DNA of 40,700 bases, from positions 1 to 40,700 of the IMG/VR virus record IMGVR_UViG_3300023092_000003, one strand, 5' to 3'. This DNA comes from a virus. Taxonomy: Duplodnaviria; Caudoviricetes. The position numbers and the translations under genes are program-made. The notes beneath the pieces were generated by a model. That model did not search any database. It saw only the letters and a list, made by a program, of their open reading frames with translations, and was not told the DNA's origin. This document shows, piece after piece, positions 5,102 through 40,700 of the stretch (its first letter is position 1; every line of letters starts with the position of its first letter).

Positions 5102-5174
5102 GGTTTCGTTAGCTCAATGGCAGAGCGCCCGACTGTGTATCGGGAGGTTATGGGTTCGAGCCCCATACGTCACC
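5102..5174 (+). tRNA. tRNA-His(GTG) with two acceptor-stem mismatches
   Basis: G-1/C73, TAGCTCAATGGCAGAGC D arm, CCCGA-CTGTGTA-TCGGG anticodon arm, GGTTCGAGCCC T arm; no encoded CCA. Confidence 0.75.
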
Positions 5175-5254
5175 CTATGCGCCAGGACTTCCGATTGTGG
5201 GCTCCCCTGGCGCTCTTGCCCCTGTACCGGCCCGAGCGCTGGCCCAGGGTGCGA

Positions 5255-5327
5255 TCCCCCTTAGCTCAGTCGGTAGAGCAGCGCACTGTTAATGCGCGGG
5301 TCCCTGGTTCGAGTCCAGGAGAGGGAG
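5255..5327 (+). tRNA. tRNA-Asn(GTT)
   Basis: full cloverleaf; GCGCA-CTGTTAA-TGCGC; one C-A mismatch in the acceptor stem. Confidence 0.88.
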
Positions 5328-5379
5328 CGAGAGCAGACGCCCTCCGGCCCGCACGCTGGAGTCCGGCGTCTGCTCGTGA

Positions 5380-5451
5380 TAGCCCTTAGTCCAATCGGTA
5401 AGACCCCCGACTCTGAATCGGGTGATCTTGGTTCGAGTCCAGGGGGGCTAG
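5380..5451 (+). tRNA. tRNA-Gln(CTG)
   Basis: TAGCCCT/GGGGCTA acceptor, CCCGA-CTCTGAA-TCGGG, GGTTCGAGTCC. Confidence 0.85.
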
Positions 5452-5584
5452 CTACGGCGGCGAGAGTGACAACGTAACGGCGGGACCTGAAATCCCGACC
5501 TAGACTCTCGCACGCTTACCGCGTCACATTCGGCCCCCGGGTGTGACTTCTAAGGCGTGGCCTCGGCCATGGACGGGGGACTTG

Positions 5585-5661
5585 CGAGGGTTAGCTCAGT
5601 CCGGCAGAGCGACGGCCATTGGGGCCGTAGGTCACTGGTTCAAATCCAGTACCCCCGCCCA
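5585..5661 (+). tRNA. Pro-like tRNA with atypical anticodon loop (identity uncertain)
   Basis: C1-G72, TAGCTCAGTCCGGCAGAGC, GGTTCAAATCC, encoded CCA; loop ACGGC-CATTGGG-GCCGT places TGG off-centre. Confidence 0.65.
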
Positions 5662-5674
5662 TACTTGCGTCTAG

Positions 5675-5690
5675 TGTTTCACGTGAAACA
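5675..5690. promoter_or_regulatory. parS: parS palindrome, copy 1
   Basis: TGTTTCACGTGAAACA, exact match to the bacterial chromosomal ParB-binding consensus. Confidence 0.8.
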
Positions 5691-5778
5691 TTCCACGCAC
5701 CTTTGCCAGGCGTACCTCACCGAGAGGGCGACCTGGTCCGCTGACTGGGTAGAGCCCTTCCCCCTGCTCCTCAGTCAC

Positions 5779-5817
5779 GAGCCCTCCAGGCCCTCCCGCC
5801 TGGGGGGCTTTTTCTTT
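5779..5817 (+). terminator. intrinsic terminator ending the tRNA cluster
   Basis: AGCCCTCCAGG...CCTGGGGGGCT followed by TTTTCTTT. Confidence 0.75.
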
Positions 5818-5850
5818 GTCCCAGCCCACCCACAACCAGCAGGAGACCCC

Positions 5851-6078
5851 ATGGCACCTATCGAAAAGCGAAAAGTCACGATGACCTCAATTGGGCTCCT
5901 GCCCGACGGGTCGACGGCTACCTACCAGGCGACGGACTACGTCCCCCTGGACATTTTGGACTCCTACGTCGCGGACGCTGCGTCGCGCTGGCAGTCCGTC
6001 ACCGTCGGCGAGTCTCACGACCCCGGCCCCGCTGGCGACGGCGGAGAAACCATCACCCCCGATCACCTTAAGGACTAA
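5851..6078 (+). CDS. hypothetical protein
   Basis: AGGAG RBS, MAPIEKRKVT..., 75 aa. Confidence 0.7.
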   Translation: MAPIEKRKVTMTSIGLLPDGSTATYQATDYVPLDILDSYVADAASRWQSVTVGESHDPGPAGDGGETITPDHLKD

Positions 6079-6083
6079 CACCA

Positions 6084-6440
6084 ATGGCAATTCAGACAGC
6101 AGCTATGCGGAAGGCTCTCGCCACCGCTTACGGTTCCAGCGCCCCCTATGGAGCCGTTTACACGACCGCCCCTGGAGCAGCAGCGGGCACCGAGCCCTCC
6201 GGAGGCTCCCCGGCGTATGCGCGTAAGGCGCTGACCTGGTCGGCTCCCGTCACGACCGGCTCCACCGAGGTCATTACGTCGACCGCGACCTTCGACATTC
6301 CGGCAGGCACAACCGCCCTCGGCGCTGGCCTCCACTCCGCCGCGACTGGCGGGACCTACATGGACGGCGGCTCGCTCACGTCCCAGGCGTTCGCCTCACA
6401 GGGCACCTTCGCTATCACCTTCTCGCTCGCACTCGCATAA
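6084..6440 (+). CDS. small virion/tail-fibre-associated protein
   Basis: GTEPSGGSPAYARKALTW...TFDIPAG...GGTY.DGG pattern resembles small actinophage minor tail proteins. Confidence 0.65.
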   Translation: MAIQTAAMRKALATAYGSSAPYGAVYTTAPGAAAGTEPSGGSPAYARKALTWSAPVTTGSTEVITSTATFDIPAGTTALGAGLHSAATGGTYMDGGSLTSQAFASQGTFAITFSLALA

Positions 6441-6460
6441 GCCCTCAGGAGGCCCCCCTA

Positions 6461-7942
6461 TTGCGTAAATCCATTGCGGCTATTGCCGCCGCTGCCGTCG
6501 TTGCGGTTGGGCTCAGCGTGGGGGCCTCGGCCTCCGCAACGATCCCAACCGGCAACCTGGTAGCTAATCCATCCTTCGAGACCAACACCAGCGGTTGGTA
6601 CGGCGACCAGGCTTACCTCACGCGGGTATCCGACTCTGCCGCCCCGGACGGTAGCTACGTCGCCAAGGTCCAGGCGGGCACAAACTCCTATTACGGAGTA
6701 GGTGACACCAGCGCCGCCGTCCAGTCCGCACCAGCGAACCAGAGCTACACCGTTTCGGCCATGGTCAAGGCGTTCTCAAGCGTCACGACTGGCGACTGGG
6801 TCACGCTCGGCGTCCGAGAGATTGGCCCCCAGGGTGTCGTCCGCGAGGTAACGAACACTGCGGCGTCGACCAACGCCTGGGCGTCCCGGTCAATCACGGT
6901 CACACCGGCGACAGGTAACGCGCTGGCTGTGTTCGCGAGTCAGTCCTCTAACGTGACCTCGCTTGACGCGTTCCTGATCGACGCGGTTACGGTTGTCGCC
7001 AACGGCACGAGCACCCCGCCGACTACCGAGCCGACCACGCCGCCGACTACCCAGCCGACGACACCGCCGACTACTCAGCCGACGACACCGCCCACGACTC
7101 AGCCGACAACGCCTCCGACGACTCAGCCCACGACCCCGCCGACTACCCAGCCGACAACTCCCCCGGCTACCGGCACGGTCTACCCGCTGCACACCAATAT
7201 CGTCGCTACGACGTTCTGGGTCGGCGAGCTGTTCAACGCGAACCTGTCCGACGGGTCCCAGCTGTGCTCCACCTACGACAGCGACTGGGCCTATCACCAC
7301 ACCGGACGTAACCTCGGCACCACCCCGAGCAACGACCCCGGCTGTGGAGGTGCGATCTTCGGCGGTTGCGACGGTGTATCGACTGGCACCACGGCCTCGA
7401 CATTCAAGTGTCGGACCGAGGCTCGCACGGCGGCTAACGGGTACTTCCCCACCCAGCAGCCGACACCGCTCGAGAACCCGTTTTACGTCGACCTCCCCTA
7501 CGACGACCTCAACGACTCGACTGGATTCAGCCAGCGTTGCACGGTCATCCCATGGGCAGCAGCTGACAACGCCCGTACCGGCGTGAACAACTGCACCAAC
7601 GAGGACTACTCCTACATGAAAAACCGCTGGGTCAAGATCACCGGACCCAACGGCGCTACGGTCTACGCCCAAAACGAGGACGCTGGACCGTCGAGCGGCT
7701 CGCTGTACCACGACAAAAACTACGTCTTCGGTAGCAACGACGCCCGCCCGGCAAACAAAAAGTTCGGCCCGACTTCCGCAGAGGGAGCCGGTATCGACGT
7801 ATCCCCCGCAGTGAACGGAGCCCTTGGCTTCGCCGAGCTGGACGGCAACTCCGACAAGGTGTCGTGGCGCTTTGTGGATGCTGTCGACGTACCCGCTGGA
7901 CCTTGGAAAACCGTCGTCACGACGAGCCAGGTTCACAACTAA
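6461..7942 (+). CDS. secreted modular protein: signal peptide + CBM4/9-like domain + Pro/Thr linker + DPBB/expansin-like C-terminal domain
   Basis: MRKSIAAIAAAAVVAVGLSVGASASA; NLVANPSFE..SGW; (PTTQPTTP)n; YAQNEDAGP...GIDVSPAV. Confidence 0.7.
   Translation: MRKSIAAIAAAAVVAVGLSVGASASATIPTGNLVANPSFETNTSGWYGDQAYLTRVSDSAAPDGSYVAKVQAGTNSYYGVGDTSAAVQSAPANQSYTVSAMVKAFSSVTTGDWVTLGVREIGPQGVVREVTNTAASTNAWASRSITVTPATGNALAVFASQSSNVTSLDAFLIDAVTVVANGTSTPPTTEPTTPPTTQPTTPPTTQPTTPPTTQPTTPPTTQPTTPPTTQPTTPPATGTVYPLHTNIVATTFWVGELFNANLSDGSQLCSTYDSDWAYHHTGRNLGTTPSNDPGCGGAIFGGCDGVSTGTTASTFKCRTEARTAANGYFPTQQPTPLENPFYVDLPYDDLNDSTGFSQRCTVIPWAAADNARTGVNNCTNEDYSYMKNRWVKITGPNGATVYAQNEDAGPSSGSLYHDKNYVFGSNDARPANKKFGPTSAEGAGIDVSPAVNGALGFAELDGNSDKVSWRFVDAVDVPAGPWKTVVTTSQVHN
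7013..7166 (+). repeat. about 6 tandem 24-bp repeats encoding a PTTQPTTP linker
   Basis: visible in DNA and protein. Confidence 0.9.
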
Positions 7943-7980
7943 CAACTAGCACCATCTATCCCGAGGAGGACCAGTCAGTT

Positions 7981-10900
7981 ATGCGGTTTCTAAAAGACTG
8001 GTCCTCCGACGCGGATTCCACTACTTCTATTGGCTCTGGCTGGACACTCGCCGGAGCAGCTCTCCAGGTCATCGGCGGCGACGTTGCCCCGACGAACACG
8101 AGCACCGCCCAGGCACGCCGTAGCGACAGCGCTGCCGCGACTGGCGGCGAGGCATACGCCCAGGCAACCGTCCTCACCGCTGGCACCGCTGGCGAGGTCG
8201 GCCCGGTCCTCTTCACCGACGCGTCCACCACGACGGACTCCACGTCGGCCTACATTGCGTTCCGCTACGCTGCCGCGACTACCCGCTTCCAGCTCATGTA
8301 CAAGCCGACGGGCACCACCGCCCTTACCGGCATCGGTACCGGCGTCACGCGCACCCTGGCGGCTAACGATGTCATGCGCCTGGTTGTCCACGACGGTATC
8401 GCCTATGGCTACGTCAACGGCACGCTGGTAGTCCAGGGGAGCGTCACGGCCAACGCCGACGCGACTGCCTGGAAGTATCCCGGTTTCCGTTTCAAGGGTG
8501 ACGCCAGTTCCCGTATCTCCGCCGTCGAGGGCGGCGACTACTCGGCTATCGCCAACGAGGGCCAGGCTGGCTCTCCCGCGTCGCTCCTCAACATCGGCAC
8601 CGGAGCCGGACAAAACCACTTCGCTCTCCAGTACGCCCGTAAGGGTGCCTCTGCCTATTCGACGGTCCCTCAGGCGGACCTTATCGCTGGCTTTGAGGAG
8701 TCGCCCTACTTCGCCCGCACCACCGACGGCAAGCGGGTCGCGTTCCGCGTGGACGTGGACTCCCCGACGACTTCGGGCTCCAGCTTCCCGCGCGCCGAGC
8801 TGCGAGAGGTCAATGCCAACGGGACCAACGCGGCGGGTAACTACCTGTCTGGCACCCACTCCATTCGCGGTAAGACCCGGATTACGCACCTGCCGAGCGT
8901 CAAGCCCGAGGTAGTTGTCGTCCAGCTCTTCGACGGCGACAGCGACGCCATTGTCATCCGTACCAGCCTTATCTCCGGCGTGCCGAAACTGGTTGTGCGT
9001 GTAAACGGTACGACCCAGAGCCCGCGGCTTATGGAGAACTACGTCCCTGGTACTGAGTTCGAGTGGATGATCCAGCTTGTCGACGGTATCGGCAAGGTGT
9101 ACGTCAACGACATGACGACGCCAATCGTCACGACGACAGCGGGGCAGCTCCCAGCGGGCAGCGCCTACTACTTCAAGGCTGGTTGCTACGCCCAGAGCAA
9201 CACGACCTACGACGCCGCAAGCGAGTATGTCTCTCTGGAGCTGCGCGACCTCCAGGTCTCACACCCTGGCGTCACTCCTGACCCTGTCGGCACCATTGGC
9301 GGCGCATCCGTCCCAGCCGCTCCGGCCTACTCGGCCACCCTGGGGCTGTCGGCGACTGGCTCGCTGTCAGTGTCTGGCGTCAAGGGCGGAGGGGCGGTAA
9401 CACCGACCTACCTCTTCCCCAACGCGAACGCCGCGAACACCTGGAGTTCCACGGACGGCCCGGTCAACGTCGGTACTCGCTTCACGGTGGACACCGGAGG
9501 CGCTATCTCGGGTATCCGCTACTACAAGCGAGACACCCTCGGAGACGGCGCGACCATCAAAGCGTCCCTGTACCTGCCGAGCGGAACGGCCCTGGCGACT
9601 GCCTCGCGCGTCCAGCAGGCCAGCGACCCAATCGGTTGGGTTACTGTCCCGTTCGTCCCAGCCGTCCCGGTTACGACGTTCTACCAGTACACGGCGGCGA
9701 TCCTCTCGACCGCGACTAACTACACGGTCACGACGGACTACTCGCCGCTGGTCAAGGTAGACACTCCCCCGCTGCACGCGCCGGTTTCGTACTCGCAATA
9801 TATGTACGGCGCTCAGACCATGCCGAACAACCAGGGCGGTTACTCCTACCTGGTCGACCCGGTCTATATTCCGTCAACCAACGACTACGCGGCGGCACTG
9901 CCTGGCACAGCGGAGGCGACGCTCAGTCTGTCGCCCCAACCCAACGCCCAGAGCGTCCTCAACCTCTCCAGCTCGGCCACCCTGGCTCTCCAGGCGACGC
10001 CGAAACCCACCCGCACCGTGACCCTGTCCGGCGCGGGAAGTTTGGCCGTTACGGCTACTGGAATGAGTGTTGCGCCTACCCTGGCGCTGACGGGCGCTGG
10101 ACAGCTCGGGCTCTCCGGCTCGGCCTCACAGACGAGCGCGGCAAGCGTTCCGCTGTCGGGCTCGGGTCAGTTGACCGTTGACGACCTGGCGCTGTCCGCG
10201 TCGTCTACTGCGTCGCTCTCGGGCTCGGGAACGCTCTCGCGCATCGGTTCGCCCAACCTGGGTCGCTCTGTAGCCCTCTCGGGCGCGGGCTCGCTCACGA
10301 TGGGCGTTTCGTCGTTTATCGCGGCCAAGGTGAACCTGTCCGGTTCCGCCTCGCTGGCTGTGACTGGCTCAACCGTCATCAAGGCGTTTGACTCTGACCA
10401 GGTCCCCTCCGGCGCGGACTACTTTGTCCGGCGCTACGCCGAGGGGTTCCGGCTGTACGTCACAGCGGGCACCATGTGGGGCGTCTCCACTCCGGACCCG
10501 TCCGTCGAGCAAAAGCTCGGCTGGGCTCTGGACGCGGGACTCAAGATTGGCCTCTACGCACGAAACCCCAACTACTACGCGAGCGCCATTAGCGCCGCTG
10601 GTAAGTGGAGGGACCGTCTCCAGTTCTTTGCACTGGACGTAGAGACCGACCCAGGTATCCCCGTCACGCGTGCCATGGTCGACGGCGTCAAGGCTCTCGG
10701 CGTCCGCCCCATCATCTACTCCGGGTGGGGCATGTGGCCCAGCATCCAAGGCGCTACGGCCAACGACTTTAGCGACTTGCTCCTCTGGGACACGGACACG
10801 CGAGCAGAGCTGGACCTGACCTACAAAGCGGACATCAACTCGCCGACGCCGGTCGCCTATGGCGGCTGGAACGTCCCGGGCAATATGCGCTTTGGTATTC

Positions 10901-12009
10901 AGCAGAAATTCGAGCAGCCGCTAGACGGCATGAACGTCGACCTAAACTCGTTTGATTCTCAGTATTTCATCGAGACAGGCACGTTCCGCGCCGCTGCGCT
11001 GCCGCTGTCCGCCGAGGGCACGCTCTCCGCTACGGCGAGCGCTAAGCCCGTCCAGGGACTCGCGGCGACCGGTTCCGGTTCACTGAGTCTCGTTGGGAAG
11101 CCTAACGCGAGTCGCTCAGTGGCTCTCTCCGGGCTCGGGACGCTGGGGATGACTAGTAGGCCCAACCAGGCCGCAAACGTCGCCCTGTCGGCGGTAGGCG
11201 GGCTGTCCGTGGCTGGTTCTCCCAGCACGGTTGGCTCAGTCCAATCGGCCGGCACGGGAACCCTGGCAGTCGCCGGAGCAGACCCCGCCACAGCGGCGAC
11301 GGTTTCGCTCTCGGGTACGGCCTCGCTCGGGTTCTCTGCGATTGCCAACTCCAAGGCGTCCGCGTCTCTGGCTCTCAGTGCCTCCGGCACTTTGGGTACA
11401 GCGACCAGCGTCGCAACGACCCAATCCGTCTCCCTCGCCGGAGGCGGCATCTTGTCGTTGTCGGGCAGCGTTTACACGACCGCACAGACCAGCCTCTACG
11501 GCTCCGGCCAGCTCTCTATCGGGGGCAAGCCGTCGCCCACGGGCAAGGCGATCCTGTCGTCCTCGGGCACGCTGGTTATTACCGGCGCGCTCAACGCTCC
11601 AGGAGCTGTCTCCCTGGGCGGAGGCGGAACGCTTGACCTGACCTCACGGCCTGGCTGGCGTCCCTCGCTCGCGCTCTCCGGCGCTGCAACTCTCGCCATG
11701 GGGGCCAAGTGGGTTCCGGTCGAGAGGCTGTCACGCTCAGGCGCTGGAACGCTCTCCCTGGAGGTCGCCGAGCTGGACACGCTCCAGGAGCTGGACCTGT
11801 ACGGGCTCGGCTCGCTGATCCTGGCGAGCAAGCCCTCGACCCAGGTCTACCGCTCAGGCGCGGGAACGCTGACCATCATGGCGGGCGTTCCGGTCTACGA
11901 CCTGGAAGTGACCGCACAACTCGACCCGCGCTCCTACACCGGACGCACTAACCCCACGGTCCGTAGCGGCGTCCTCGCTGGCCGGACCTGGACAGGAAAG
12001 ATCAAATGA
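7981..12009 (+). CDS. large mosaic tailspike/fibre-like protein: lectin-like N-terminus, PL7 lyase-like domain, DUF4082-like domain, LSGxGxL repeats with an inserted GH25-like muramidase
   Basis: GAGGAGG RBS before ATG 7981; RAELRE and YFKAGCYAQ (PL7); VGTRFTVD..G.ISGIRYYK; ALDVE, PIIYSG..W and VDLNSF (GH25-like). Confidence 0.72.
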   Translation: MRFLKDWSSDADSTTSIGSGWTLAGAALQVIGGDVAPTNTSTAQARRSDSAAATGGEAYAQATVLTAGTAGEVGPVLFTDASTTTDSTSAYIAFRYAAATTRFQLMYKPTGTTALTGIGTGVTRTLAANDVMRLVVHDGIAYGYVNGTLVVQGSVTANADATAWKYPGFRFKGDASSRISAVEGGDYSAIANEGQAGSPASLLNIGTGAGQNHFALQYARKGASAYSTVPQADLIAGFEESPYFARTTDGKRVAFRVDVDSPTTSGSSFPRAELREVNANGTNAAGNYLSGTHSIRGKTRITHLPSVKPEVVVVQLFDGDSDAIVIRTSLISGVPKLVVRVNGTTQSPRLMENYVPGTEFEWMIQLVDGIGKVYVNDMTTPIVTTTAGQLPAGSAYYFKAGCYAQSNTTYDAASEYVSLELRDLQVSHPGVTPDPVGTIGGASVPAAPAYSATLGLSATGSLSVSGVKGGGAVTPTYLFPNANAANTWSSTDGPVNVGTRFTVDTGGAISGIRYYKRDTLGDGATIKASLYLPSGTALATASRVQQASDPIGWVTVPFVPAVPVTTFYQYTAAILSTATNYTVTTDYSPLVKVDTPPLHAPVSYSQYMYGAQTMPNNQGGYSYLVDPVYIPSTNDYAAALPGTAEATLSLSPQPNAQSVLNLSSSATLALQATPKPTRTVTLSGAGSLAVTATGMSVAPTLALTGAGQLGLSGSASQTSAASVPLSGSGQLTVDDLALSASSTASLSGSGTLSRIGSPNLGRSVALSGAGSLTMGVSSFIAAKVNLSGSASLAVTGSTVIKAFDSDQVPSGADYFVRRYAEGFRLYVTAGTMWGVSTPDPSVEQKLGWALDAGLKIGLYARNPNYYASAISAAGKWRDRLQFFALDVETDPGIPVTRAMVDGVKALGVRPIIYSGWGMWPSIQGATANDFSDLLLWDTDTRAELDLTYKADINSPTPVAYGGWNVPGNMRFGIQQKFEQPLDGMNVDLNSFDSQYFIETGTFRAAALPLSAEGTLSATASAKPVQGLAATGSGSLSLVGKPNASRSVALSGLGTLGMTSRPNQAANVALSAVGGLSVAGSPSTVGSVQSAGTGTLAVAGADPATAATVSLSGTASLGFSAIANSKASASLALSASGTLGTATSVATTQSVSLAGGGILSLSGSVYTTAQTSLYGSGQLSIGGKPSPTGKAILSSSGTLVITGALNAPGAVSLGGGGTLDLTSRPGWRPSLALSGAATLAMGAKWVPVERLSRSGAGTLSLEVAELDTLQELDLYGLGSLILASKPSTQVYRSGAGTLTIMAGVPVYDLEVTAQLDPRSYTGRTNPTVRSGVLAGRTWTGKIK

Positions 12010-12269
12010 TAAACACCTTCCAGCGGGAGACGGTCGAATTCCAGCCCGTCTCCCTGGCCGCTAACGGGGCTCCCGTTCTGGACGGCGTCGAATTCAGCAT
12101 TGTGCTGGAGGGACGCCGTCCGGATACCTGGATTCCTGCCGTGACCCTTTCCGGGAAGCTCGGCTTTATGGTCCAGGGCAAAGGCCCTGGCGCGTACCGC
12201 GTATGGGCGCGCATCACTGCCAACCCAGAAACACCCGTCATTGACTGCGGTATCTTCCGCGTTATCTAG
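12006..12269 (+). CDS. small structural protein (BppU/baseplate-upper-like)
   Basis: RETVEFQPV...GPGAYRVWARITANPETPVI; coupled to the large gene. Confidence 0.55.
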   Translation: MINTFQRETVEFQPVSLAANGAPVLDGVEFSIVLEGRRPDTWIPAVTLSGKLGFMVQGKGPGAYRVWARITANPETPVIDCGIFRVI

Positions 12270-12401
12270 CCCGAGAGAGGGGGTACCTATTCCCATGGCC
12301 CAGAACATAAGCCCCTGGATTATGTACCCCCCTCTATTAGCCCCTGGCTTTTATACCCCCCTGGTACACAGCAGGGCCTACCCATATGGGGTGGGCTAAC
12401 T

Positions 12402-12701
12402 ATGGGGTGGGATACCAGCAGCAGGCGGGAGGAGCTACCCGCTAACTGGTCTGTGTTGCGTGTGCGTGTGCTGCGCCGAGACGGTTACAAATGTCAGGCA
12501 CGAGACAGCACAGGACAGAAGTGTTTGGCTCCAGCCAACCAATGCGATCACATCGAGCGCGGCAACGATCACAGCATGGAGAACTTGCAAGCGTTGTGTC
12601 GTTGGCATCACGCACGCAAGAGTTCGGCAGAAGGAGCAGCAGCGCGAAAGCCTCGAAACCTCAGAGTCCGTGAACCTGAGAGTCATCCGGGAAATATCTG
12701 A
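12402..12701 (+). CDS. HNH endonuclease (packaging-associated)
   Basis: VLRRDGYKCQ...C...DHI...NLQALC.WHH..K; last gene before cos. Confidence 0.92.
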   Translation: MGWDTSSRREELPANWSVLRVRVLRRDGYKCQARDSTGQKCLAPANQCDHIERGNDHSMENLQALCRWHHARKSSAEGAAARKPRNLRVREPESHPGNI

Positions 12702-12745
12702 GTGCGGTTGACCCAGGACCCCCCTCCCCCCGTCTCCACCGTCCT

Positions 12746-12756
12746 CGAAGGGGCAT
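12746..12756. other. cos: probable cos site (11-nt cohesive end CGAAGGGGCAT)
   Basis: lies between HNH and the terminase region; matches, from memory, the 3' overhang of Arthrobacter cluster AZ phages. Confidence 0.75.
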
Positions 12757-12836
12757 AGCACCTCCGTGTGCGCCAGAGTCTGGGCTTTTCAGTAGAAATG
12801 CTCAGCTTTGGCGCCGAGGCCGTGTAAACGACGATC

Positions 12837-12861
12837 CTTCGTAAGCCAGGCCCCCTATATA
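12837..12861 (+). promoter_or_regulatory. phage-specific promoter motif, class II (late candidate)
   Basis: CTTCGTAAGCCAGGCCCCCTATATA upstream of the packaging/structural operon. Confidence 0.65.
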
Positions 12862-12916
12862 GCTACGGAGGGCCTTTAGTTCTGCGGTTTTTCAGCGTCC
12901 CGAGGAGGTCCGACCC

Positions 12917-13393
12917 ATGCAAGCTGGCGACATCGCAATGGTCAAAACGACCGCCATTTGGGGCGCACTTATCAGGGTGTTTACACGCTCTCGCTACGAC
13001 CATGCCGTCCTGATTCTCAACGACCGCGGGCTCGCCGTCGAGGCCGTCCCATCCGGCGCACGTTATTGCTACGTCCAGCCCGAGGACATCGTCGTCTCCC
13101 CTCCGCTGACCAGCGACCAGCGCCTGGTTGTCCGTGCCAAGGGCCACGCCCTGATCGGCACTCGCTACAACTTCCTGGACGTTGGCCTCCTCGGCCTCGC
13201 CCAGCTCGGCGTCCGCGCCGAATGGCTCCGCAAGCGTCTAGCTCGCGCGGACCGTCTCTTTTGCTCGCAACTCATTGACCTAGCCCTCCAGGACGCGGGC
13301 TATCACCTTTTCGAGGACGGGCGACTCCCCCAGAACGTCTCACCCGGCGACCTGGCCGACCTTGCATTCCGCGAGGGCTGGCCGCGCGCCTAG
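12917..13393 (+). CDS. permuted papain-like NlpC/P60 (YiiX/YebB-type) protein
   Basis: GDI, YDHAVL, VEA, IGTRYN, LFCSQLI, SPGDL: His before Cys, the permuted order. Confidence 0.8.
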   Translation: MQAGDIAMVKTTAIWGALIRVFTRSRYDHAVLILNDRGLAVEAVPSGARYCYVQPEDIVVSPPLTSDQRLVVRAKGHALIGTRYNFLDVGLLGLAQLGVRAEWLRKRLARADRLFCSQLIDLALQDAGYHLFEDGRLPQNVSPGDLADLAFREGWPRA

Positions 13394-13413
13394 CCCCTCG
13401 ACAGGAGGACACC

Positions 13414-13845
13414 ATGGCCGGAAACGGACCCCTTGCAAAGGACCAGCACCAGCGCGAGCGCAACACAAAGCGCCACCAGGCAGACACCGCCACGGTCTCC
13501 CAGGACGACGAGGTCCGAGGACCTGACCTGGAGGGTGACTACCTCCCTCAGACCCACCGCTGGTATAACACCTGGCGCACGTCCCCCCAGGCCCAGCTTT
13601 TCGAGACCACCGACTGGCTCCGCCTGATTCTCCTGGCGTCCCTGGTCAACCAGTATTTCGTTTTCCCCACCACGGCGGCTCTCGCCGAGATTCGTCTCAA
13701 CGAGGAGCGCCTCGGAGCGCTCTACGCCGACCGGCAGCGGGCAAAAATCCGCATCACGCCGCGCGAGCAGGACGACGAGACGCCCTCACTGGCGATTGTC
13801 TCCAGCGCCGACGACGCACGCGCCCGAATGCGAGGCGGCGTCTAA
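13414..13845 (+). CDS. terS: terminase small subunit
   Basis: MAGNGP.AK, WY.TWRTSPQA..F..TDW, AEIRL.EE.LG...DR; directly before terL. Confidence 0.85.
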   Translation: MAGNGPLAKDQHQRERNTKRHQADTATVSQDDEVRGPDLEGDYLPQTHRWYNTWRTSPQAQLFETTDWLRLILLASLVNQYFVFPTTAALAEIRLNEERLGALYADRQRAKIRITPREQDDETPSLAIVSSADDARARMRGGV

Positions 13846-13860
13846 CCCCCAGGAGGCCAC

Positions 13861-15555
13861 ATGGCAAAGAAGTGGAAAGCCGTTACATCGGTTCCCGACT
13901 TCCCCCTGGACGACTCCATAAAGACCCTCGGCTGGGACGTTATCCACTTCGCCGAGAGCTACCTCCTCCAGCCTGACGGCGACGACGCTGGCGAGCCCTT
14001 CCGCTTCACGCGCGAGCAGCTCAACTTTGTGCTCTGGTTCTACGCAATCGACGCGCACGGCAAGTTCCTTTACCGGCGAGCAGTGCTCCGCCGTGCAAAG
14101 GGCTGGGGCAAGTCGCCGTTCCTGGGAGCCCTCGCGCTTGCCGAGCTGTGCGGCCCTGTCCGCTTCGGCGGCTGGCGAGCTGACGGGACGCCTAAGGCGA
14201 TCCCCCACCCGCTCCCCTGGATCGTTATTGCGGGTGTGTCTGAGACTCAGACGAAAAACACCATGGACGCGATCCGCGCCATGGCCGAGGACTCCGCCCT
14301 GGTTGACGACTTCGGCCTAGACGTGGGTATGACCCGGATTCTGACTCCGGGCGGAGGCAAAATCGTCCCAGTCACGGCCAGCGCCGCGACCCAGGAGGGT
14401 GCACGCCCGACGTTCGCGATTATGGACGAGACGCACCACTGGACCGCCACAAACGGCGGTCACAAGCTCTCCCGCGTTGTCCGGCGCAACCTGGCAAAGG
14501 CCCGAGGCGGTGACGGTCGCTCAATCGAGACGACCAACGCGCACGAGCCCGGCCAGGACAGCACCGCCGAAAAGTCCTACCTGGCGTACCGCTCCATTCT
14601 GGAGGGACGCTCCCGCGCAACCGGCATCCTGTACGACTCCCGCGAGGCACCGCCCGACATCGACCTCTCCGACGAGGTCGCGGTCATGGAGGGCCTCAAA
14701 TGCGCTTACGGCGACAGCTTCTGGGTTGACCTGGAGCGCATCCTTGCCGAGGTCTACGACCCCGACACTCCCCCCGAGGAGGCGCGTCGCTTCTACCTCA
14801 ACCAGATCGTAGCCGCCGCTGACTCCTGGGTTACTCCCGCCGAGTGGTCCAAGGGCTGGGACGAGGACCTGGTCGGCCTCAAGCTGGGCGAGCCTGGCGA
14901 CAAGCGAAACCGGGGCGAGATTGTCACCCTGGGATTCGACGGCTCGCTGACCGACGACTCGACCGCCCTAGTGGCCTGTCGAATGTCCGACGGTGCCGCG
15001 TTCGTCATCGGCGTCTGGGAAAAGCCCGAGGGCCCCTCCGGCGCTAACTGGTCTGTCCCGAAAGAGCAGGTCCGCGAGGCGGTCGCCTGGGCGTTCGGAC
15101 ACCTGGACGTTATCGCCTTTTTCTCCGACGTTGCCTACTGGGAAACGGACGTGGACTCCTGGCGAGACACGTACAACGAGCAGCTACTCGTTAAGGCCAC
15201 CACACGGCACGCCGTGGGCTACGACATGCGAGGTCACCAGATGGAGACAACGCGCGCCGTCGAGGCACTCCACCGCGCTCTGATCGAGGGCGAAATGCCA
15301 TACGGCCCGCACCGTTTACACGCCGGTCCCCGACTCGACCTAGCCGCCGACGAGATCCTTACTCGCCACGTGCTGAACGCCCGACGCCGTCCCAACCGCT
15401 GGGGCGTGAGCTTCGGTAAGGAATCCCGAGAGTCGCCGAAAAAGGTCGACGTACTGGCCGCGCTGGTACTCGCCCGCATGGCCCGCTCCCGCGCCCTCGC
15501 CGAGAACGTCCTCAAGAAAAACCGCCGAGCGCCTGGTCGCTTGGTCGGTTTCTAA
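13861..15555 (+). CDS. terL: terminase large subunit
   Basis: RRAKGWGKS Walker A, IMDETH Walker B, LGFDGS..DDST nuclease, KKVD. Confidence 0.95.
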   Translation: MAKKWKAVTSVPDFPLDDSIKTLGWDVIHFAESYLLQPDGDDAGEPFRFTREQLNFVLWFYAIDAHGKFLYRRAVLRRAKGWGKSPFLGALALAELCGPVRFGGWRADGTPKAIPHPLPWIVIAGVSETQTKNTMDAIRAMAEDSALVDDFGLDVGMTRILTPGGGKIVPVTASAATQEGARPTFAIMDETHHWTATNGGHKLSRVVRRNLAKARGGDGRSIETTNAHEPGQDSTAEKSYLAYRSILEGRSRATGILYDSREAPPDIDLSDEVAVMEGLKCAYGDSFWVDLERILAEVYDPDTPPEEARRFYLNQIVAAADSWVTPAEWSKGWDEDLVGLKLGEPGDKRNRGEIVTLGFDGSLTDDSTALVACRMSDGAAFVIGVWEKPEGPSGANWSVPKEQVREAVAWAFGHLDVIAFFSDVAYWETDVDSWRDTYNEQLLVKATTRHAVGYDMRGHQMETTRAVEALHRALIEGEMPYGPHRLHAGPRLDLAADEILTRHVLNARRRPNRWGVSFGKESRESPKKVDVLAALVLARMARSRALAENVLKKNRRAPGRLVGF

Positions 15556-15577
15556 TTCCCGACCCGAGGAGGGTTGC

Positions 15578-16954
15578 ATGACGATAGACCCTAAGCTCGC
15601 CGGTCGGCTAGACGACTCGCTGGAGCTGGACCTCCAGGCGCAAGGTCGCCTGGGGCTCCCCCGGCGTTACCTCAAGGGCCAGCACGACCAGCCCTACATG
15701 CCGACCAAGGCCAAGGCCGAATACAAGCGCCTGGCAGAGGTCGCGATCACCAACTGGACGCCGCTCCTGTCGGACACGTACTCGCGTGGTCTGTTTGTCG
15801 ACGGCTACCGTCCGGCAAAGTCCACCGACAACGCCGAGGCATGGAGCTATTGGCAGGACAACGGCCTGGACGCCCGCCAGACAGTCGCCATTCGCGGCGC
15901 TCTGGAGTATGGCGCGTCCTACAACCTGGTACTGCCCGGCACGCTCAAATCTAAGCGCGTCCCGCTGATCCGCCCGCTGTCCCCGCTGCGCTCCATGGCC
16001 TGGTACGCCGACCCGGACGACGACTACCCCGAGCTGGCGCTCCTCCGCAAGGGAACGTCATTCGACGGCACCCGGCTTATCCAGGTCCTGGATAACCAGA
16101 CGGTCAACACCTACGCCAAGCCGAAAAACGAGGGGCTCTGGAGGCTGTCAAAGTCCGAGGAGCACGGACTGGGCGTTACGCCCTTTGTCCGCTTCCGCGA
16201 GCGACTGGACGACGAGAGCCTCGGCATCATTCGCCCGATTGTCCCTCTCCAGAACCGCATCAACGAAATCGTCTTTTCGACGCTTATCGCGATCCAGTAC
16301 GCGGCGTTCCGCCAGCGCTGGGCGTCCGGTCTGGTCATCCCCGAGGACGACGACGGCAACCCCATCGAGCCTTTCCAGGCGGCGATTGACCGTCTCTGGG
16401 TCTCCGACAACCCAGAGGCCCGTTTCGGCGACTTTAGCCAGACGGAGCTATCCGGCCACCACAACGCCTACGACTCCGCCGTCCGCACCATGGCGGCTAT
16501 CGCTCAAATCTCGCCGAACATTCTGACCGGCGACCTGGTCAACCTCTCCGCTGACGCCCTGGCTCAGATGGAGGCAGCGACACAGCGCAAGATCGGCGAA
16601 TACGAAACCATCTTTGGCGAGTCCTGGGAGTCCACCTTCCGCCTGGCATCCCTGGCAGCGGGCAACCGCGCCGGGGCGACTGACACGTCCGCCCAGGTCC
16701 GTTGGCGCGACACCGAGGCCCGTTCGCTGGCTCAGACGGTCGACGCTCTCGGCGTTATGGCTCAGACGCTCCAGGTTCCGGTCGAGGCCCTCTGGGAGAA
16801 AATCCCGGGCATCACCGACCAGGACGTTACCTACTGGAAGTCCCTTCGCGAGTCCGGCGACGTTATGGGCGAGCTGGTCGCACAGATCACCCGCCAGACA
16901 ACACCGCCCCCCGAGGAGACCCCCTCGCCGGACACCAAGGCAATTACCGCGTAA
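15578..16954 (+). CDS. portal protein
   Basis: 458 aa after terL; SPP1 gp6-like features (NLSADAL, WEKIPG). Confidence 0.9.
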   Translation: MTIDPKLAGRLDDSLELDLQAQGRLGLPRRYLKGQHDQPYMPTKAKAEYKRLAEVAITNWTPLLSDTYSRGLFVDGYRPAKSTDNAEAWSYWQDNGLDARQTVAIRGALEYGASYNLVLPGTLKSKRVPLIRPLSPLRSMAWYADPDDDYPELALLRKGTSFDGTRLIQVLDNQTVNTYAKPKNEGLWRLSKSEEHGLGVTPFVRFRERLDDESLGIIRPIVPLQNRINEIVFSTLIAIQYAAFRQRWASGLVIPEDDDGNPIEPFQAAIDRLWVSDNPEARFGDFSQTELSGHHNAYDSAVRTMAAIAQISPNILTGDLVNLSADALAQMEAATQRKIGEYETIFGESWESTFRLASLAAGNRAGATDTSAQVRWRDTEARSLAQTVDALGVMAQTLQVPVEALWEKIPGITDQDVTYWKSLRESGDVMGELVAQITRQTTPPPEETPSPDTKAITA

Positions 16955-16969
16955 CCCGAGGGAGGGACC

Positions 16970-17722
16970 ATGGCTGACTCAGACGTGGCCCTCGCTCAGG
17001 CGCACATGCGCCAGCAGGTAAAGGACGTGGCAGTTGTCCAGCGGGCGCTCGGCGTCGCATTCGACAGGATGATCGACCCGAGCCGCCCCTATTCCAACTT
17101 CGGCGAGTATCTCAAGTTCGCGCTGCGGATTATCGAGGCTGGTCGAGCTAAAGGCACGATCACCGCCGACCGGTATTACCAGGCGGCGCGACTCCTCGGA
17201 GGCGTCGGCGGCAAGCTCCCCGCTTTCGGCAAACCCGAGTTCGAGGCCGAGCGCTGGGCGGCAAGCCTTCGCGCTACCGGCCCCGCCAACCTCTACGACC
17301 GCATAGTCGCCGGGCAGACCCCGACAGAGGCCAAGGTGTTCGCCCAGGTCGCCACTCTCAGCGCCGCCAAGCGACTGATCCTGGACGCCCCCAGAGCCGA
17401 GCTAATCGACCTCACCCGGCGCGATACAGAATCGGCCGGCTGGGCTCGCGTGAGCGACGGCAAGCCCTGTTACTTCTGCGCCATGTTGGTCAGTCGCGGC
17501 CCGGTCTACTCCGAGGACACCGTCCGATTTATCGCCCACGACGGTTGCGGTTGCTCCGTGCGATCGGTCTGGAAAAAGGACCCGACGCGCGGCTGGGACA
17601 AAGACGCGAAAGCCCTCGCTGCCCTCTGGAAAGAGACAGGCGCGGACGGCTGGCGCTCTGCCTATACCAAGTCAATCAGCGCCGACGGCGCGACCCTCTC
17701 CAGCATCACGAAAGGCACCTAA
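16970..17722 (+). CDS. MuF-like minor head / capsid maturation protein
   Basis: GWARV..GKPCYFCAMLVSRGPVY...AHDGCGC. Confidence 0.8.
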   Translation: MADSDVALAQAHMRQQVKDVAVVQRALGVAFDRMIDPSRPYSNFGEYLKFALRIIEAGRAKGTITADRYYQAARLLGGVGGKLPAFGKPEFEAERWAASLRATGPANLYDRIVAGQTPTEAKVFAQVATLSAAKRLILDAPRAELIDLTRRDTESAGWARVSDGKPCYFCAMLVSRGPVYSEDTVRFIAHDGCGCSVRSVWKKDPTRGWDKDAKALAALWKETGADGWRSAYTKSISADGATLSSITKGT

Positions 17723-18435
17723 TGGCTACTCCAGGTAACGTCCTGGCCTTCTACGCGGAAAAGCGCTGGGGGAACCGCCACGGCATCAAAGGCCCGCTCT
17801 ACGGAGCAGCCGGACACCGAGGCCACGACATCAAAACCGCCGCACGCGAGGCCGTCCCGGCACTGCGCGGCGGAAAGGTTGTCTACACCGGGCGCTCCTC
17901 CGTCCTCGGCCCCGTCGTCGTTATCGAGGTCGGCCCCGGCAACTATGACGGCTACGCCCACCTGTACGGCCTCAAGGTCGAAACCGGAGACCACGTCGCC
18001 CAGGGCGAGATTATCGCCCTGACGGCTGGCGTCGGCGACTACCACGGCACCGCGTGGCTCGGCCCTCACCTTCACATCACCAACGGCGCACTGTCCGGCT
18101 CGGTATTCGCCGGAGCGACCCGCGACCCTGCCCCCGGCATCCGCGACATTCTCGCCGACGTTGCTGTCCTCGCCCCCGCGAGCACCCCGAGCAAGCCCGC
18201 TCCCGTTCCGGCCAAAGCCCCTGCACCGACTATCCGAAAGGAAGTACCTGAAATGTTCCTCATGCGCATCACGTCCGGCGAGGTCTACCTCATTACAAGC
18301 CGAGGCAAGGTCCAGCTCACCCACCCGTCGCACATCGTCCTCTTTCAGCGCATGTTCAAGACCTACCCGGACTTCGACACGTTCAACGCCGCAGAGCGCG
18401 ACATTCTCACGAGCTACATTCTCCGCGCGAGCTAG
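17722..18435 (+). CDS. M23 peptidase, probable endolysin
   Basis: ATG 17722 coupled to upstream TAA; HRGHD, YAHL, GPHLH; Pro-rich linker then a C-terminal domain. Confidence 0.85.
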   Translation: MATPGNVLAFYAEKRWGNRHGIKGPLYGAAGHRGHDIKTAAREAVPALRGGKVVYTGRSSVLGPVVVIEVGPGNYDGYAHLYGLKVETGDHVAQGEIIALTAGVGDYHGTAWLGPHLHITNGALSGSVFAGATRDPAPGIRDILADVAVLAPASTPSKPAPVPAKAPAPTIRKEVPEMFLMRITSGEVYLITSRGKVQLTHPSHIVLFQRMFKTYPDFDTFNAAERDILTSYILRAS

Positions 18436-18535
18436 CCCTCCCGCGTAAGAAACCCCACGCACTACCGCGTTTACACGCACCAACCCACTCGCCCTGGCAG
18501 GTCCAGGGCTGACCGTCCCAGGAGGACACAAACAA

Positions 18536-19042
18536 ATGCCAGACGCCCAGACCCCACCGTGGGGTAACGACTTCGACGCCGAAAAAGCCTGGACCTTGCT
18601 CCAGAACGTCCGCAAAGACAAGACCGACCTGATTGCCGAAAAGGCGACGCTGGTTGGTCAGGTCGCCGAGCTTCAAACCGCAATCCAGGCGAAAGCGGAC
18701 GAAAAGCTGGAGGACAAGTTGGCCGCCGCCGAAAAGTCCCTGTTTGTCGAGCGAGCGCTCCGCAAACACCCCGAGGCAGAGGAGTTCCTGGACTTCCTGA
18801 CTGGCGAAACCGAGGACGAGATTACCGCCAAGGCGGAGCGTCTCGCCAAGGCCGGAAAGCCCAAGGGCGACCCCAAGCCTGACGACAAAAAGGGCGACGA
18901 CAAAAAGGGTGACGAAACCCCTAACCCCGCCGACCTCCAGCGCCGTCCCGGCGAGAACCTCACGCCCGGACACGGCGGCGAGCAGACCGTCGCGTTCGAC
19001 GCGAAATCCATCGCCTCGGAAATTATCTCCGCCCCCCACTAA
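18536..19042 (+). CDS. scaffolding protein
   Basis: PPWG..FDAEKAW.L..N, coiled coil, L.GETEDEI..KAERL; precedes the capsid gene. Confidence 0.8.
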   Translation: MPDAQTPPWGNDFDAEKAWTLLQNVRKDKTDLIAEKATLVGQVAELQTAIQAKADEKLEDKLAAAEKSLFVERALRKHPEAEEFLDFLTGETEDEITAKAERLAKAGKPKGDPKPDDKKGDDKKGDETPNPADLQRRPGENLTPGHGGEQTVAFDAKSIASEIISAPH

Positions 19043-19078
19043 CCGTCCCTTCCTGGGACCCTCTCCCGAAAGGCTGTA

Positions 19079-20071
19079 ATGCCACAGAACCCCAACGACT
19101 TCTACACCCCGGCTAACGCCGTAGAGGTCCTCGCTAACCTCATTGCACAGCGCGGCGTGTTCTCCGCGCTTGTGTCGCGCAACTTCCAGAACGACCTCCT
19201 CGGAGGCGGCATGGGCGGCGCTCCGGTATCTATCAAGATGCCGACAACCCTTATCGCGCGTGACCGCGATATTGACGACGTGACGAGCACCATCGTGCTC
19301 GACAACATTGTCGAGACCCGCAAGACGTTCAACCTCGACCGGGTACACACCTACTCGGCGGTTGGCCTCTCGGAGGCGGACCTCACGCTCAACCTCAAGG
19401 ACTTCGGCGTCCAGGTCCTGGACCCCCAGGCCAAGGCGGTTGTCGACTCCCTGGAGTACAAGCTCACCCGCAAGGTCCTGGGCGTGCCCGTTACGGGTAT
19501 CGGCTCGGGCGCTGGCGTGCACTTCGACCCCGCGAACCCGATTCCGTACTTCACGGCGATTCGCAAGCAGCTGATCGACAACGGCGTCGCCGTCGCCGGT
19601 CTCCAGATGCTGGTCGGAACCAACGTCTACGCCCAGCTCCTGGACGCGGGCGCACTGACCGACGTGAGCCAGTCCGGCTCCACCGCCGCGCTCCGCGACG
19701 CGAGTGTCGGAAAGGTCCGCGACTTCACCGTTGTGGAGTTCCCCGCCCTGCCCGAAAACGAGATTGTGGCGTTCCACCGCGACGCGATCACGCTTATCAC
19801 CCGCGCCCCCGTGGTGCCCCAGGGTGCGAGCTTCGGCGCGACCATTGCGGAGGCTGGTTTCAACCTCCGCTACCTGCGCGACTACGACGCCAACCACACC
19901 CAGGACCGCTCCATCGTGAGCACCTTCTCGGGTGTCGGCATCCTGCCGACGTTCAAGGTCGAGCGCAACTACGACGACCGCACCGTCGAAACGACCGAGC
20001 TGGCGAACGGTGGTGTGCTCCACCTGGACACCACCCAGACCGCCCCGGCTCCGGCCAACATCGGCGAATAG
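19079..20071 (+). CDS. major capsid protein
   Basis: 330 aa; AFHRDAITL.TRAP..P.GA.FG, LRYLRDYD; synteny. Confidence 0.9.
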   Translation: MPQNPNDFYTPANAVEVLANLIAQRGVFSALVSRNFQNDLLGGGMGGAPVSIKMPTTLIARDRDIDDVTSTIVLDNIVETRKTFNLDRVHTYSAVGLSEADLTLNLKDFGVQVLDPQAKAVVDSLEYKLTRKVLGVPVTGIGSGAGVHFDPANPIPYFTAIRKQLIDNGVAVAGLQMLVGTNVYAQLLDAGALTDVSQSGSTAALRDASVGKVRDFTVVEFPALPENEIVAFHRDAITLITRAPVVPQGASFGATIAEAGFNLRYLRDYDANHTQDRSIVSTFSGVGILPTFKVERNYDDRTVETTELANGGVLHLDTTQTAPAPANIGE

Positions 20072-20091
20072 TCGAACGGAGTCGCGTCTAG

Positions 20092-20107
20092 TGTTTCACG
20101 TGAAACA
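20092..20107. promoter_or_regulatory. parS: parS palindrome, copy 2 (inside a 44-bp hairpin, 20078-20121)
   Basis: TGTTTCACGTGAAACA; shares 26 bp GCGTCTAGTGTTTCACGTGAAACATT with copy 1. Confidence 0.8.
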
Positions 20108-20142
20108 TTAGGCGCGACTCCCTCCCCGCCCAGGAGGCACAC

Positions 20143-31277: not shown

Positions 31278-31381
31278 CGAAAGTGACGTTTGAACCGTCA
31301 CTTTCCTATTCCCCTCTTAAGGTGTGTCTCTCTTAAGCAAGTAATAGGAAAGTGACGTTCAATTCGTCACTTTGTCACTTC
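31271..31381. repeat. 111-bp nested inverted repeat containing two AAAGTGACG-N7-CGTCACTTT palindromes
   Basis: read directly from the sequence; AT-rich core. Confidence 0.9.
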
Positions 31382-40530: not shown

Positions 40531-40700
40531 TTGCTCACGTTCAACTACACCCTGGCGGGCGAGGATTGCGTCATTTACTTCCCCGAACGCCGCGACGAGC
40601 TGGCCGGGTTCGAGCGCTTCCTCGCTCGCGGCGATAAGGTCCTGGGCCTCGACACCGAGACAAACAACCTGGACACCTACTCGCGCGGCGGCGGTCTCCG
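40531..40700 (+). CDS. DNA polymerase I-family, N-terminal 3'-5' exonuclease domain (partial, runs off the window)
   Basis: GAGGA RBS + TTG; VLGLDTETNNLD ExoI motif; follows the primase as in related phages. Confidence 0.8.
   Translation, partial: MLTFNYTLAGEDCVIYFPERRDELAGFERFLARGDKVLGLDTETNNLDTYSRGGGL

What the first reader, a model, noticed from the sequence alone, without database searches (positions are those of the whole stretch)
5667..20121. Phage carries two perfect host-type chromosomal parS sites but no parA/parB in the window
Seen: TGTTTCACGTGAAACA at 5675-5690 and 20092-20107. Both are intergenic (after the last tRNA; after the major capsid gene) and share the 26-bp context GCGTCTAGTGTTTCACGTGAAACATT. 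Established: this is the chromosomal parS consensus bound by ParB/Spo0J in Bacillus, Streptomyces and other Actinobacteria, and ParB-parS complexes engage ParA and load SMC. Known parABS actinophages use their own ParA/ParB and different repeats. Inference: the phage may hijack the host ParABS/SMC machinery with cis sites alone, to position or segregate extrachromosomal phage DNA (carrier state), to look like chromosome to plasmid-restricting systems, or to titrate ParB as copy number rises and so block host segregation and division. Two AT-rich 16-mers in a high-GC genome are very unlikely by chance.
Basis: partly seen in the sequence, partly recalled or inferred. Interest (0 to 1): 0.88.

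Follow-up and report, generated by a model that had tools for sequence, protein, structure and literature searches.

The report
Host centromere sites in an actinophage
A phage related to Arthrobacter and Curtobacterium phages carries two exact copies of the DNA site that such bacteria use as their chromosome centromere, and it likely borrows the host's ParB protein, probably to keep its DNA inherited without integrating, as suggested by cultured relatives that lack an integrase yet carry six or seven such sites.

Summary
Confirmed: two perfect TGTTTCACGTGAAACA sites (5675, 20092), intergenic, each inside a stem-loop; chance about 1e-6. The phage is cluster AZ/EH-like. The same 14-bp core clusters around chromosomal parB in 5 of 5 Micrococcales genomes tested. 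No ParA/ParB is seen here or in complete parS-bearing relatives. The contig stops inside DNA polymerase I, so the integrase slot (10-15 kb) is unseen. Site 1 is kept in a 90-92% identical relative while its flank diverges. Site 2's position recurs in Curtobacterium phages (7 of 7 fetched) and two metagenomic relatives; most relatives keep only the hairpin. New here: the integrase-less AZ4 clade (Emotion 7, VroomVroom 6, JasmineDragon 6 sites) is the group a 2025 preprint suspects of non-integrated lysogeny without noting parS. Against a simple swap: Cappuccino has both an integrase and one site. Best reading: cis-only loading of host ParB (about 0.85), most likely to partition or anchor non-integrated phage DNA (about 0.5 overall). 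This scan has noted orphan phage parS on other DNA many times. New variant; testable in cultured phages.

The parts
5675..5690 (.). parS copy 1, perfect 16-bp palindrome
   Evidence: no difference listed across it in contigs of runs X2, X3, X4, while 20 substitutions and several indels are listed at 5691-5798 in X2
5667..5698 (+). 26-bp context shared with copy 2 (5667-5692) and weak outer stem around copy 1
   Evidence: pair I3; RNA fold z -3.0
20092..20107 (.). parS copy 2, perfect 16-bp palindrome
   Evidence: same position in L152, L181 and 7 of 7 Curtobacterium phages fetched
20078..20121 (+). 20-bp RNA hairpin after the major capsid gene, with parS as its inner stem and loop; a hairpin at this place is family-wide
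   Evidence: -39.8 kcal/mol, z -6.7, two G-U pairs
5103..5661 (+). four tRNA genes (His, Asn, Gln, Gln) directly upstream of copy 1
5779..5810 (+). terminator-like hairpin with T tract downstream of copy 1
   Evidence: consensus scan only
19079..20071 (+). major capsid protein, 64-65% identical to Arthrobacter phages Emotion, MaGuCo, Liebe
30663..31277 (+). context: family-wide gene, candidate immunity repressor (homologous to a Streptomyces phage protein annotated as phiC31-repressor related)
   Evidence: hhalign probability 98%, E 3e-13; function untested
35633..36331 (+). context: recombination directionality factor-like gene; also present in integrase-less AZ4 phages, so not proof of an integrase
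   Evidence: (PF18897)
40531..40700 (+). first 56 codons of DNA polymerase I; the contig ends here, so the sigma-like/SprT/integrase region is missing
   Evidence: 72% to Soondubu gp37

Best explanation
The two palindromes are exact copies of the chromosomal parS core found around parB in Micrococcales, and they likely load the host's own ParB onto phage DNA, probably so that the host ParA/SMC/pole-tethering machinery partitions or anchors a non-integrated phage genome during a lysogenic or carrier state. Steps: (1) sequence identity with host-group parS: shown. (2) Selection on the DNA sequence itself: shown by comparison. (3) No phage reader in complete parS-bearing relatives: shown at profile-search sensitivity; for this phage only for the 40.7 kb held. 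(4) Host ParB binds and spreads in vivo: inferred (about 0.85). (5) ParB-coated phage circles are moved by ParA or held at the pole and so inherited: inferred (about 0.55 given step 4). The sites were placed where they cost nothing: in this phage at the tip of existing RNA hairpins; in the AZ4 clade in disordered protein tails read as V-S-R-E-T.
For: Host side: 5 of 5 genomes holding prophages of this family have 2-10 exact 14-mers, all within about 7 kb of chromosomal parB, reversed-pattern control 0; their ParB helix-turn-helix has the R and G that PMC7383237 names as parS contacts (positions matched by eye); 36 of 61 genomes of the Microbacterium host's family hold the full 16-mer. Selection: site 1 unchanged in a 90-92% identical relative beside a diverged flank; over 1.85 Mb of (partly overlapping) family loci the parS palindrome occurs 27 times and the other 419 same-composition palindromes once in total; in-gene AZ4 sites use rare codons (GTT 5% of Val, TCA 2-6% of Ser); in Cappuccino and G044 half of the site lies in the hairpin loop, so pairing does not explain it. 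No reader: ParB_N 0 of 5, HTH_ParB 0 of 5, ParA-type ATPase 0 of 5; AZ4 'DNA binding proteins' are sigma-like; no gene is shared only by parS-bearing lineages. Lifestyle: all 4 complete non-proviral relatives without a serine or tyrosine integrase (Emotion, VroomVroom, JasmineDragon, G045) carry 6-7 sites, while 19 of 19 records with a serine-integrase domain have no exact site (one has a 1-mismatch site). The AZ preprint reports that Emotion and VroomVroom lack an integrase yet give turbid plaques and may form non-integrated lysogens. A candidate repressor is kept in this phage and in AZ4. Precedents: phi29 uses five parS sites and host Spo0J for segregation into the prespore; one parS suffices for ParB spreading and SMC loading in Corynebacterium; parAB plus one parS stabilises an unstable plasmid.
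Against: No binding or phenotype was measured. Whether this phage has an integrase is unknown (10-15 kb missing). The four integrase-less records form one clade (quick tree), so that association is a single evolutionary event. Cappuccino has both a serine integrase and an exact site, and G044 has an integrase and a 1-mismatch site, both at the same post-capsid position as site 2, so this site type does not mark integrase loss. G017 (89% complete) has neither. The site is rare in the family: 3 of 47 and 0 of 17 virus records. Absence from proviruses is not significant (0 of 17 vs 3 of 47, p 0.56). Many other carriers listed belong to groups I recall as lytic (Arthrobacter AK/AP, Gordonia CS, Microbacterium EC; recalled, not checked), which fits a lytic-phase use as well. 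No plasmid-type replicon was identified. The host of this phage is not determined.
Confidence: 0.5

Rival explanations
1. Host ParB is loaded, but the benefit is in the lytic cycle: replicating genomes titrate ParB from the origin and stall segregation and division, or ParB/SMC position and organise the replicating phage DNA.
For: Hosts hold only about 2-10 sites, so amplified phage DNA would outnumber them (arithmetic inference). Loss or displacement of parS-ParB gives 20-25% anucleate cells in Corynebacterium. Integrase-bearing Cappuccino has a site too. Carriers include many phages of groups recalled as lytic.
Against: Copy number per genome rises to 6-7 exactly in the integrase-less, turbid-plaque clade; most relatives, which also grow lytically, have none.
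Confidence: 0.22
2. ParB-loaded SMC makes the phage circle look chromosomal and shields it from SMC-family anti-plasmid defence (MksBEFG/Wadjet).
For: MksBEFG lowers plasmid copy number and SMC is loaded through ParB-parS in an actinobacterium. Patchy occurrence across the family would fit host-specific defence.
Against: I found no paper showing that parS protects from MksBEFG (listing; passages of PMC7083940 only). Presence of the system in the hosts was not tested.
Confidence: 0.1
3. A phage-encoded ParB-like or other DNA-binding protein in the missing part of the genome reads the sites.
For: 10-15 kb is unseen. An earlier scan note (e1-6308841) reported such a binder in another phage. 2 of 49 parS-bearing virus records have a ParB_N match.
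Against: Complete relatives with 1-7 sites have no ParB_N, HTH_ParB or ParA match and share no exclusive gene; a private binder would have no need to match the host consensus exactly.
Confidence: 0.07
4. ParB bound at the sites acts as a roadblock or silencer that tunes late-gene transcription.
For: Both sites sit in stem-loops at transcription junctions, after the tRNAs and after the capsid gene; ParB spreads 32 kb from one site in Corynebacterium.
Against: No promoter-like match near site 1; AZ4 sites are scattered through genes and intergenic gaps with no common promoter context.
Confidence: 0.06
5. The palindromes are only RNA hairpin stems (terminator or processing site) that match parS by chance.
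For: A strong hairpin follows the capsid gene in essentially all relatives and 50 of 54 rows lack parS there; some are 4 substitutions away; site 2's outer stem has G-U pairs.
Against: 27 versus 1 in the permuted-palindrome control; off-axis sites in Cappuccino and G044; in-gene, hairpin-free sites in AZ4; four separate lineages reach the same 14-mer.
Confidence: 0.05

Closest known systems
parS sites of Bacillus phage phi29 read by host Spo0J/ParB (PMC2731898, passages read; the primary study is seen only as its reference 21)
   Same: Host-consensus parS on phage DNA, no phage ParA/ParB, proposed use of host segregation machinery during a non-lytic state.
   Different: Here a long-tailed AZ/EH-like phage of Micrococcales, hosts I recall as non-sporulating, so prespore entrapment cannot be the purpose; no Spo0A switch; sites sit in RNA hairpins; binding not shown.
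Chromosomal ParABS-SMC of Actinobacteria (Corynebacterium glutamicum, PMC7083940, passages read)
   Same: Identical 14-bp core; likely the same reader.
   Different: Site is on a phage, not near oriC; no parAB operon beside it; two copies 14.4 kb apart.
parABS extrachromosomal mycobacteriophages such as RedRock (PMC7157519, passages read)
   Same: Actinophages that lack an integrase and persist as extrachromosomal prophages, the state proposed here.
   Different: They encode ParA and ParB and use eight direct repeats of an 8-bp motif; this family has neither gene and uses the host palindrome.
Cluster AZ4 Arthrobacter phages Emotion, VroomVroom, JasmineDragon (bioRxiv 10.1101/2025.05.26.655371, passages and the Lysogeny section read)
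   Same: Same phage family, same site, no partition genes.
   Different: 6-7 dispersed sites, many in genes; integrase known to be absent. The preprint's main text has no occurrence of parS.

Membership tests
Chromosomal-type parS site | Matches the 14-16 bp palindromic consensus used by the host group | tested here: met
Chromosomal-type parS site | Cognate ParB with parS-type recognition residues exists in the likely hosts | tested here: met
   actual host of this phage not determined
Chromosomal-type parS site | Lies near oriC/parAB of a chromosome | tested here: not met
   flanked by phage tRNA and capsid genes; it works like a parS but is not a chromosomal centromere
Chromosomal-type parS site | Bound by ParB in vitro and in vivo | not testable with these tools
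   needs EMSA, ChIP or imaging
phi29-type cis-only use of host parS | Host-consensus parS on phage DNA, kept by selection | tested here: met
phi29-type cis-only use of host parS | No phage-encoded ParA/ParB | tested here: inconclusive
   none in the 40.7 kb held or in complete relatives, but 10-15 kb of this genome is missing
phi29-type cis-only use of host parS | Sporulating host, Spo0A boxes, entrapment in the prespore | tested here: not met
   relatives infect Arthrobacter, Microbacterium, Curtobacterium; that these do not form endospores is recalled knowledge
parABS extrachromosomal actinophages (RedRock type) | Phage parA and parB genes with 8-bp direct-repeat parS | tested here: not met
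parABS extrachromosomal actinophages (RedRock type) | No integrase; extrachromosomal prophage | tested here: inconclusive
   integrase slot missing from this contig; absent in AZ4; prophage state untested
Cluster AZ/EH-like phages | Shared core genes and gene order | tested here: met
   long branch of its own in trees

The most novel reading that the evidence does not exclude
A minimal phage-plasmid lifestyle with no partition genes: lineages of AZ/EH-like actinophages have swapped their integrase for copies of the host centromere, keep a phiC31-like repressor, and persist as extrachromosomal prophages carried by the host's ParABS-SMC; this phage is one of at least four lineages to acquire the site, by tuning the tip of an existing RNA hairpin into parS.
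Probability: 0.3. Interest if true: 0.82.

Novelty: new variant of a known kind. Interest (0 to 1): 0.6.

Why it matters
It extends host-centromere piracy from spore-formers to actinobacteria where spore entrapment cannot be the reason, and it offers a concrete answer to a stated open question: how integrase-less AZ4 phages could form lysogens. Cultured phages, hosts and a small number of mutable sites are in hand, so the test is direct. If true, phages annotated as lytic because they lack integrase and parAB may include hidden phage-plasmids, detectable by a 14-bp motif (about 5,700 stored stretches of the viral collection are estimated to hold the 16-mer; 47 of 49 sampled have no ParB match).

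Tried and rejected
Recovering the missing 10-15 kb: capsid query, 24-bp context pattern, close-clade alignment and primase query found no near relative in the viral collection; the metagenome scan returned only the window's own contig (L232) and distant relatives. 'parS only where the integrase is lost': rejected as a rule by Cappuccino and G044. 'parS excluded from proviruses': 0 of 17 vs 3 of 47, p 0.56; 0 of 49 parS-bearing records are proviruses but so are 0 of 50 control records, so uninformative. AZ4 tandem 'DNA binding proteins' as ParB: sigma-like. A 90-aa gene that seemed shared by Cappuccino and Emotion was a common zinc-ribbon domain, and the AZ4 90-aa gene is private to AZ4. ORF 32688-33128: unnamed phage family, no ParB likeness. 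Host assignment by tail protein or endolysin gave no named host. Rfam: only tRNAs. No RNA holder listed; run X5 laid nothing on site 1. The careful terminase tree did not finish; only the quick tree and a FastTree are used, with weak deep nodes, so gains versus losses are not resolved. BLAST counts of 312 and 320 phage records are rough, near the detection limit, contain duplicate records, and include unannotated Listeria fragments that may be host DNA (not checked). Scan look-ups by place and sequence were blank.
Full report
Observation. Expected count under Markov orders 1-5 is 0.9-5.4e-6; because the copies share 26 bp they should be counted as one origin plus a duplication (inference). Site 1 follows tRNA-Gln(ttg) and precedes a terminator-like hairpin. 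Site 2 follows the major capsid stop and forms the tip of a 20-bp RNA hairpin with two G-U pairs.

What the phage is. Capsid 64-65% identical to Arthrobacter phages Emotion, MaGuCo and Liebe; terminase matches 97 records at E 1e-150 or better: 71 Arthrobacter, 15 Microbacterium, 10 Curtobacterium, 1 other. It is an AZ/EH-like phage on a long branch of its own; the host is inferred to be in the Micrococcales and was not determined. The window is the entire record but not the entire genome: it ends 56 codons into DNA polymerase I, and the same capsid sequence is on record on a contig of 55,645 bp and a 99% identical one on 51,100 bp. The missing part is where relatives carry the sigma-like gene, SprT and the serine integrase. 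In what is held there is no ParA, ParB or integrase (68 ORFs; six-frame searches).

Is it the host's parS? In 5 of 5 bacterial genomes that carry prophages of this family the exact 14-bp core occurs 2-10 times, the reversed control never, and every copy lies in a cluster at the chromosomal parB gene. Their ParB proteins have the arginine and glycine that PMC7383237 (passages) names as parS contacts (matched by eye). 36 of 61 genomes sampled from the Microbacterium host's family hold the full 16-mer (misses may be flank variants or incomplete assemblies).

Is the sequence selected? A relative 90-92% identical over long contigs (runs X2-X4, possibly one campaign, counted once) shows no listed difference at 5664-5690, against 20 listed substitutions and several indels at 5691-5798; the X3 contig spans the site well inside its ends. 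A strong hairpin follows the capsid gene throughout the family, but only 4 of 54 rows carry parS there: this window, L152 (G015), L181 (G044, one mismatch) and Curtobacterium phage Cappuccino. Ten Curtobacterium records match that region; I fetched 7, and 7 of 7 have the exact core, once per genome, though they are 93-100% alike there. In Cappuccino and G044 half the site is in the loop, so base-pairing does not account for it. G015 and its sister L150 (a provirus) share the 15-nt left arm but L150 has a degenerate core. Among 420 same-composition palindromes, parS occurs 27 times and the rest once in 1.85 Mb of partly overlapping family loci. The site is nonetheless rare: 3 of 47 and 0 of 17 related virus records, 0 of 50 unrelated controls.

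The AZ4 link. Emotion has 7 exact sites, VroomVroom 6, JasmineDragon 6, G045 5 exact and 1 near. Several lie in genes, in frame as V-S-R-E-T in tails and linkers, with codons that are rare in these genomes. None of the four has a serine or tyrosine integrase match and none tested has ParB_N, HTH_ParB or ParA; their two 'DNA binding proteins' are sigma-like, and no gene is exclusive to parS-bearing lineages. Of 27 records, 19 have a serine-integrase domain and none of those has an exact site. Against over-reading: the four are one clade, so one event; Cappuccino has an integrase and a site; G017 has neither; the provirus contrast is not significant.

Mechanism. Shown: identity with host-group parS, selection, absence of a phage reader in complete relatives. 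Inferred: host ParB loads at the sites (about 0.85). In Corynebacterium one parS suffices for ParB spreading over 32 kb and SMC loading, and ParB-parS is tied to polar DivIVA (PMC7083940 passages); parAB with one parS stabilises an unstable plasmid (PMC4368675 passage). I commit to partition or anchoring of non-integrated phage DNA in a lysogenic or carrier state (0.5 overall), ahead of a lytic-phase use (0.22), shielding from MksBEFG (0.10), a phage reader in the missing part (0.07), a transcription roadblock (0.06) and hairpin coincidence (0.05). A family-wide gene at 30663-31277, also kept in AZ4, is homologous to a Streptomyces phage protein annotated as related to the phiC31 immunity repressor (hhalign 98%, E 3e-13; Atlas likeness under its bar; that protein itself has no repressor Pfam hit); if it is the repressor the preprint could not identify, these phages keep a lysogeny switch.

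Comparison with what is known. The closest system is phi29, whose five parS sites recruit host Spo0J for segregation into the prespore (PMC2731898 passages; primary study not seen). This works like it but fails its sporulation feature. It is not a RedRock-type parABS phage, which encodes ParA/ParB and uses 8-bp direct repeats (PMC7157519 passages). Host-type sites are widespread on phages: roughly 310-320 cultured-phage records give short matches, among them Clostridium, Bacillus, Microbacterium, Arthrobacter and Gordonia phages (rough counts), about 5,700 stretches of the viral collection are estimated to hold the 16-mer, and of 49 such records searched (the longer ones among the first 80 of 139 loci) 2 have a ParB_N match. 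Nine literature searches returned no paper on host-type parS in actinophages; the library lacks most subscription papers. This scan's own notes list 33 findings with these words in at least 32 other genomes, so the general observation is recurrent; they are not independent support.

Verdict. Real, selected, most likely read by host ParB; a new variant of the phi29 strategy in hosts recalled as non-sporulating. What raises it above another instance is the link to the integrase-less, turbid-plaque AZ4 phages, which makes a published open question testable in culture. Interest 0.6.

Noticed in passing
window 30663-31277: Gene conserved in 100 AZ/EH/Curtobacterium phage records and annotated 'hypothetical' is homologous to Streptomyces phage Samy's 'putative immunity repressor' (phiC31-related by its annotators); both precede an exonuclease gene. 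Candidate for the AZ repressor that the 2025 preprint says is unidentified.
   Followed up: partly
window 31280-31373: AT-rich imperfect inverted repeat of about 95 bp directly after that gene, made of two smaller palindromes; similar structures at the same place in Emotion, MaGuCo, Soondubu, VroomVroom, Cappuccino. Operator or replication origin candidate.
   Followed up: partly
window 2430, 12849, 31411, 35570, 40300: Recurrent 15-bp motif GGCCCCCTCTGTAGC, three exact and several near copies, mostly upstream of genes (10 matches at 3 mismatches, 2.4 expected); likely a phage promoter or regulatory element, perhaps for the family's sigma-like protein.
   Followed up: partly
window 6084-12009: Structural-looking block between the tRNAs and the terminase, absent from the cultured relatives compared: a protein with a carbohydrate-binding domain and Pro-Thr repeat (6984-7199) and a 1,381-aa ORF with alginate lyase and DUF4082 domains. 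Possibly a virion-borne polysaccharide-degrading appendage.
   Followed up: no
window 17545-18435: M23 peptidase/endolysin between the maturation protease and scaffold genes, the same odd position as the endolysin of Curtobacterium phage Cappuccino, though not a sequence match.
   Followed up: partly
runs X2 and X4 at window 5664-5690: Contigs of the relative break exactly at site 1, which may mean a further copy of this context in that genome or an extended palindrome.
   Followed up: no
phage collection hits: Small rodent-gut phage records of about 6 kb show 10-12 parS-like places each, Clostridium phi29-like phages 5-9, several Microviridae 1-2, and a Vibrio phage has hits in its terminal repeat.
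   Followed up: no
L140 33922-35778, L339 33099-35061, L340 33132-35137: The integrase-less AZ4 phages carry a tandem duplication of the sigma-like gene (also stated in the preprint).
   Followed up: partly
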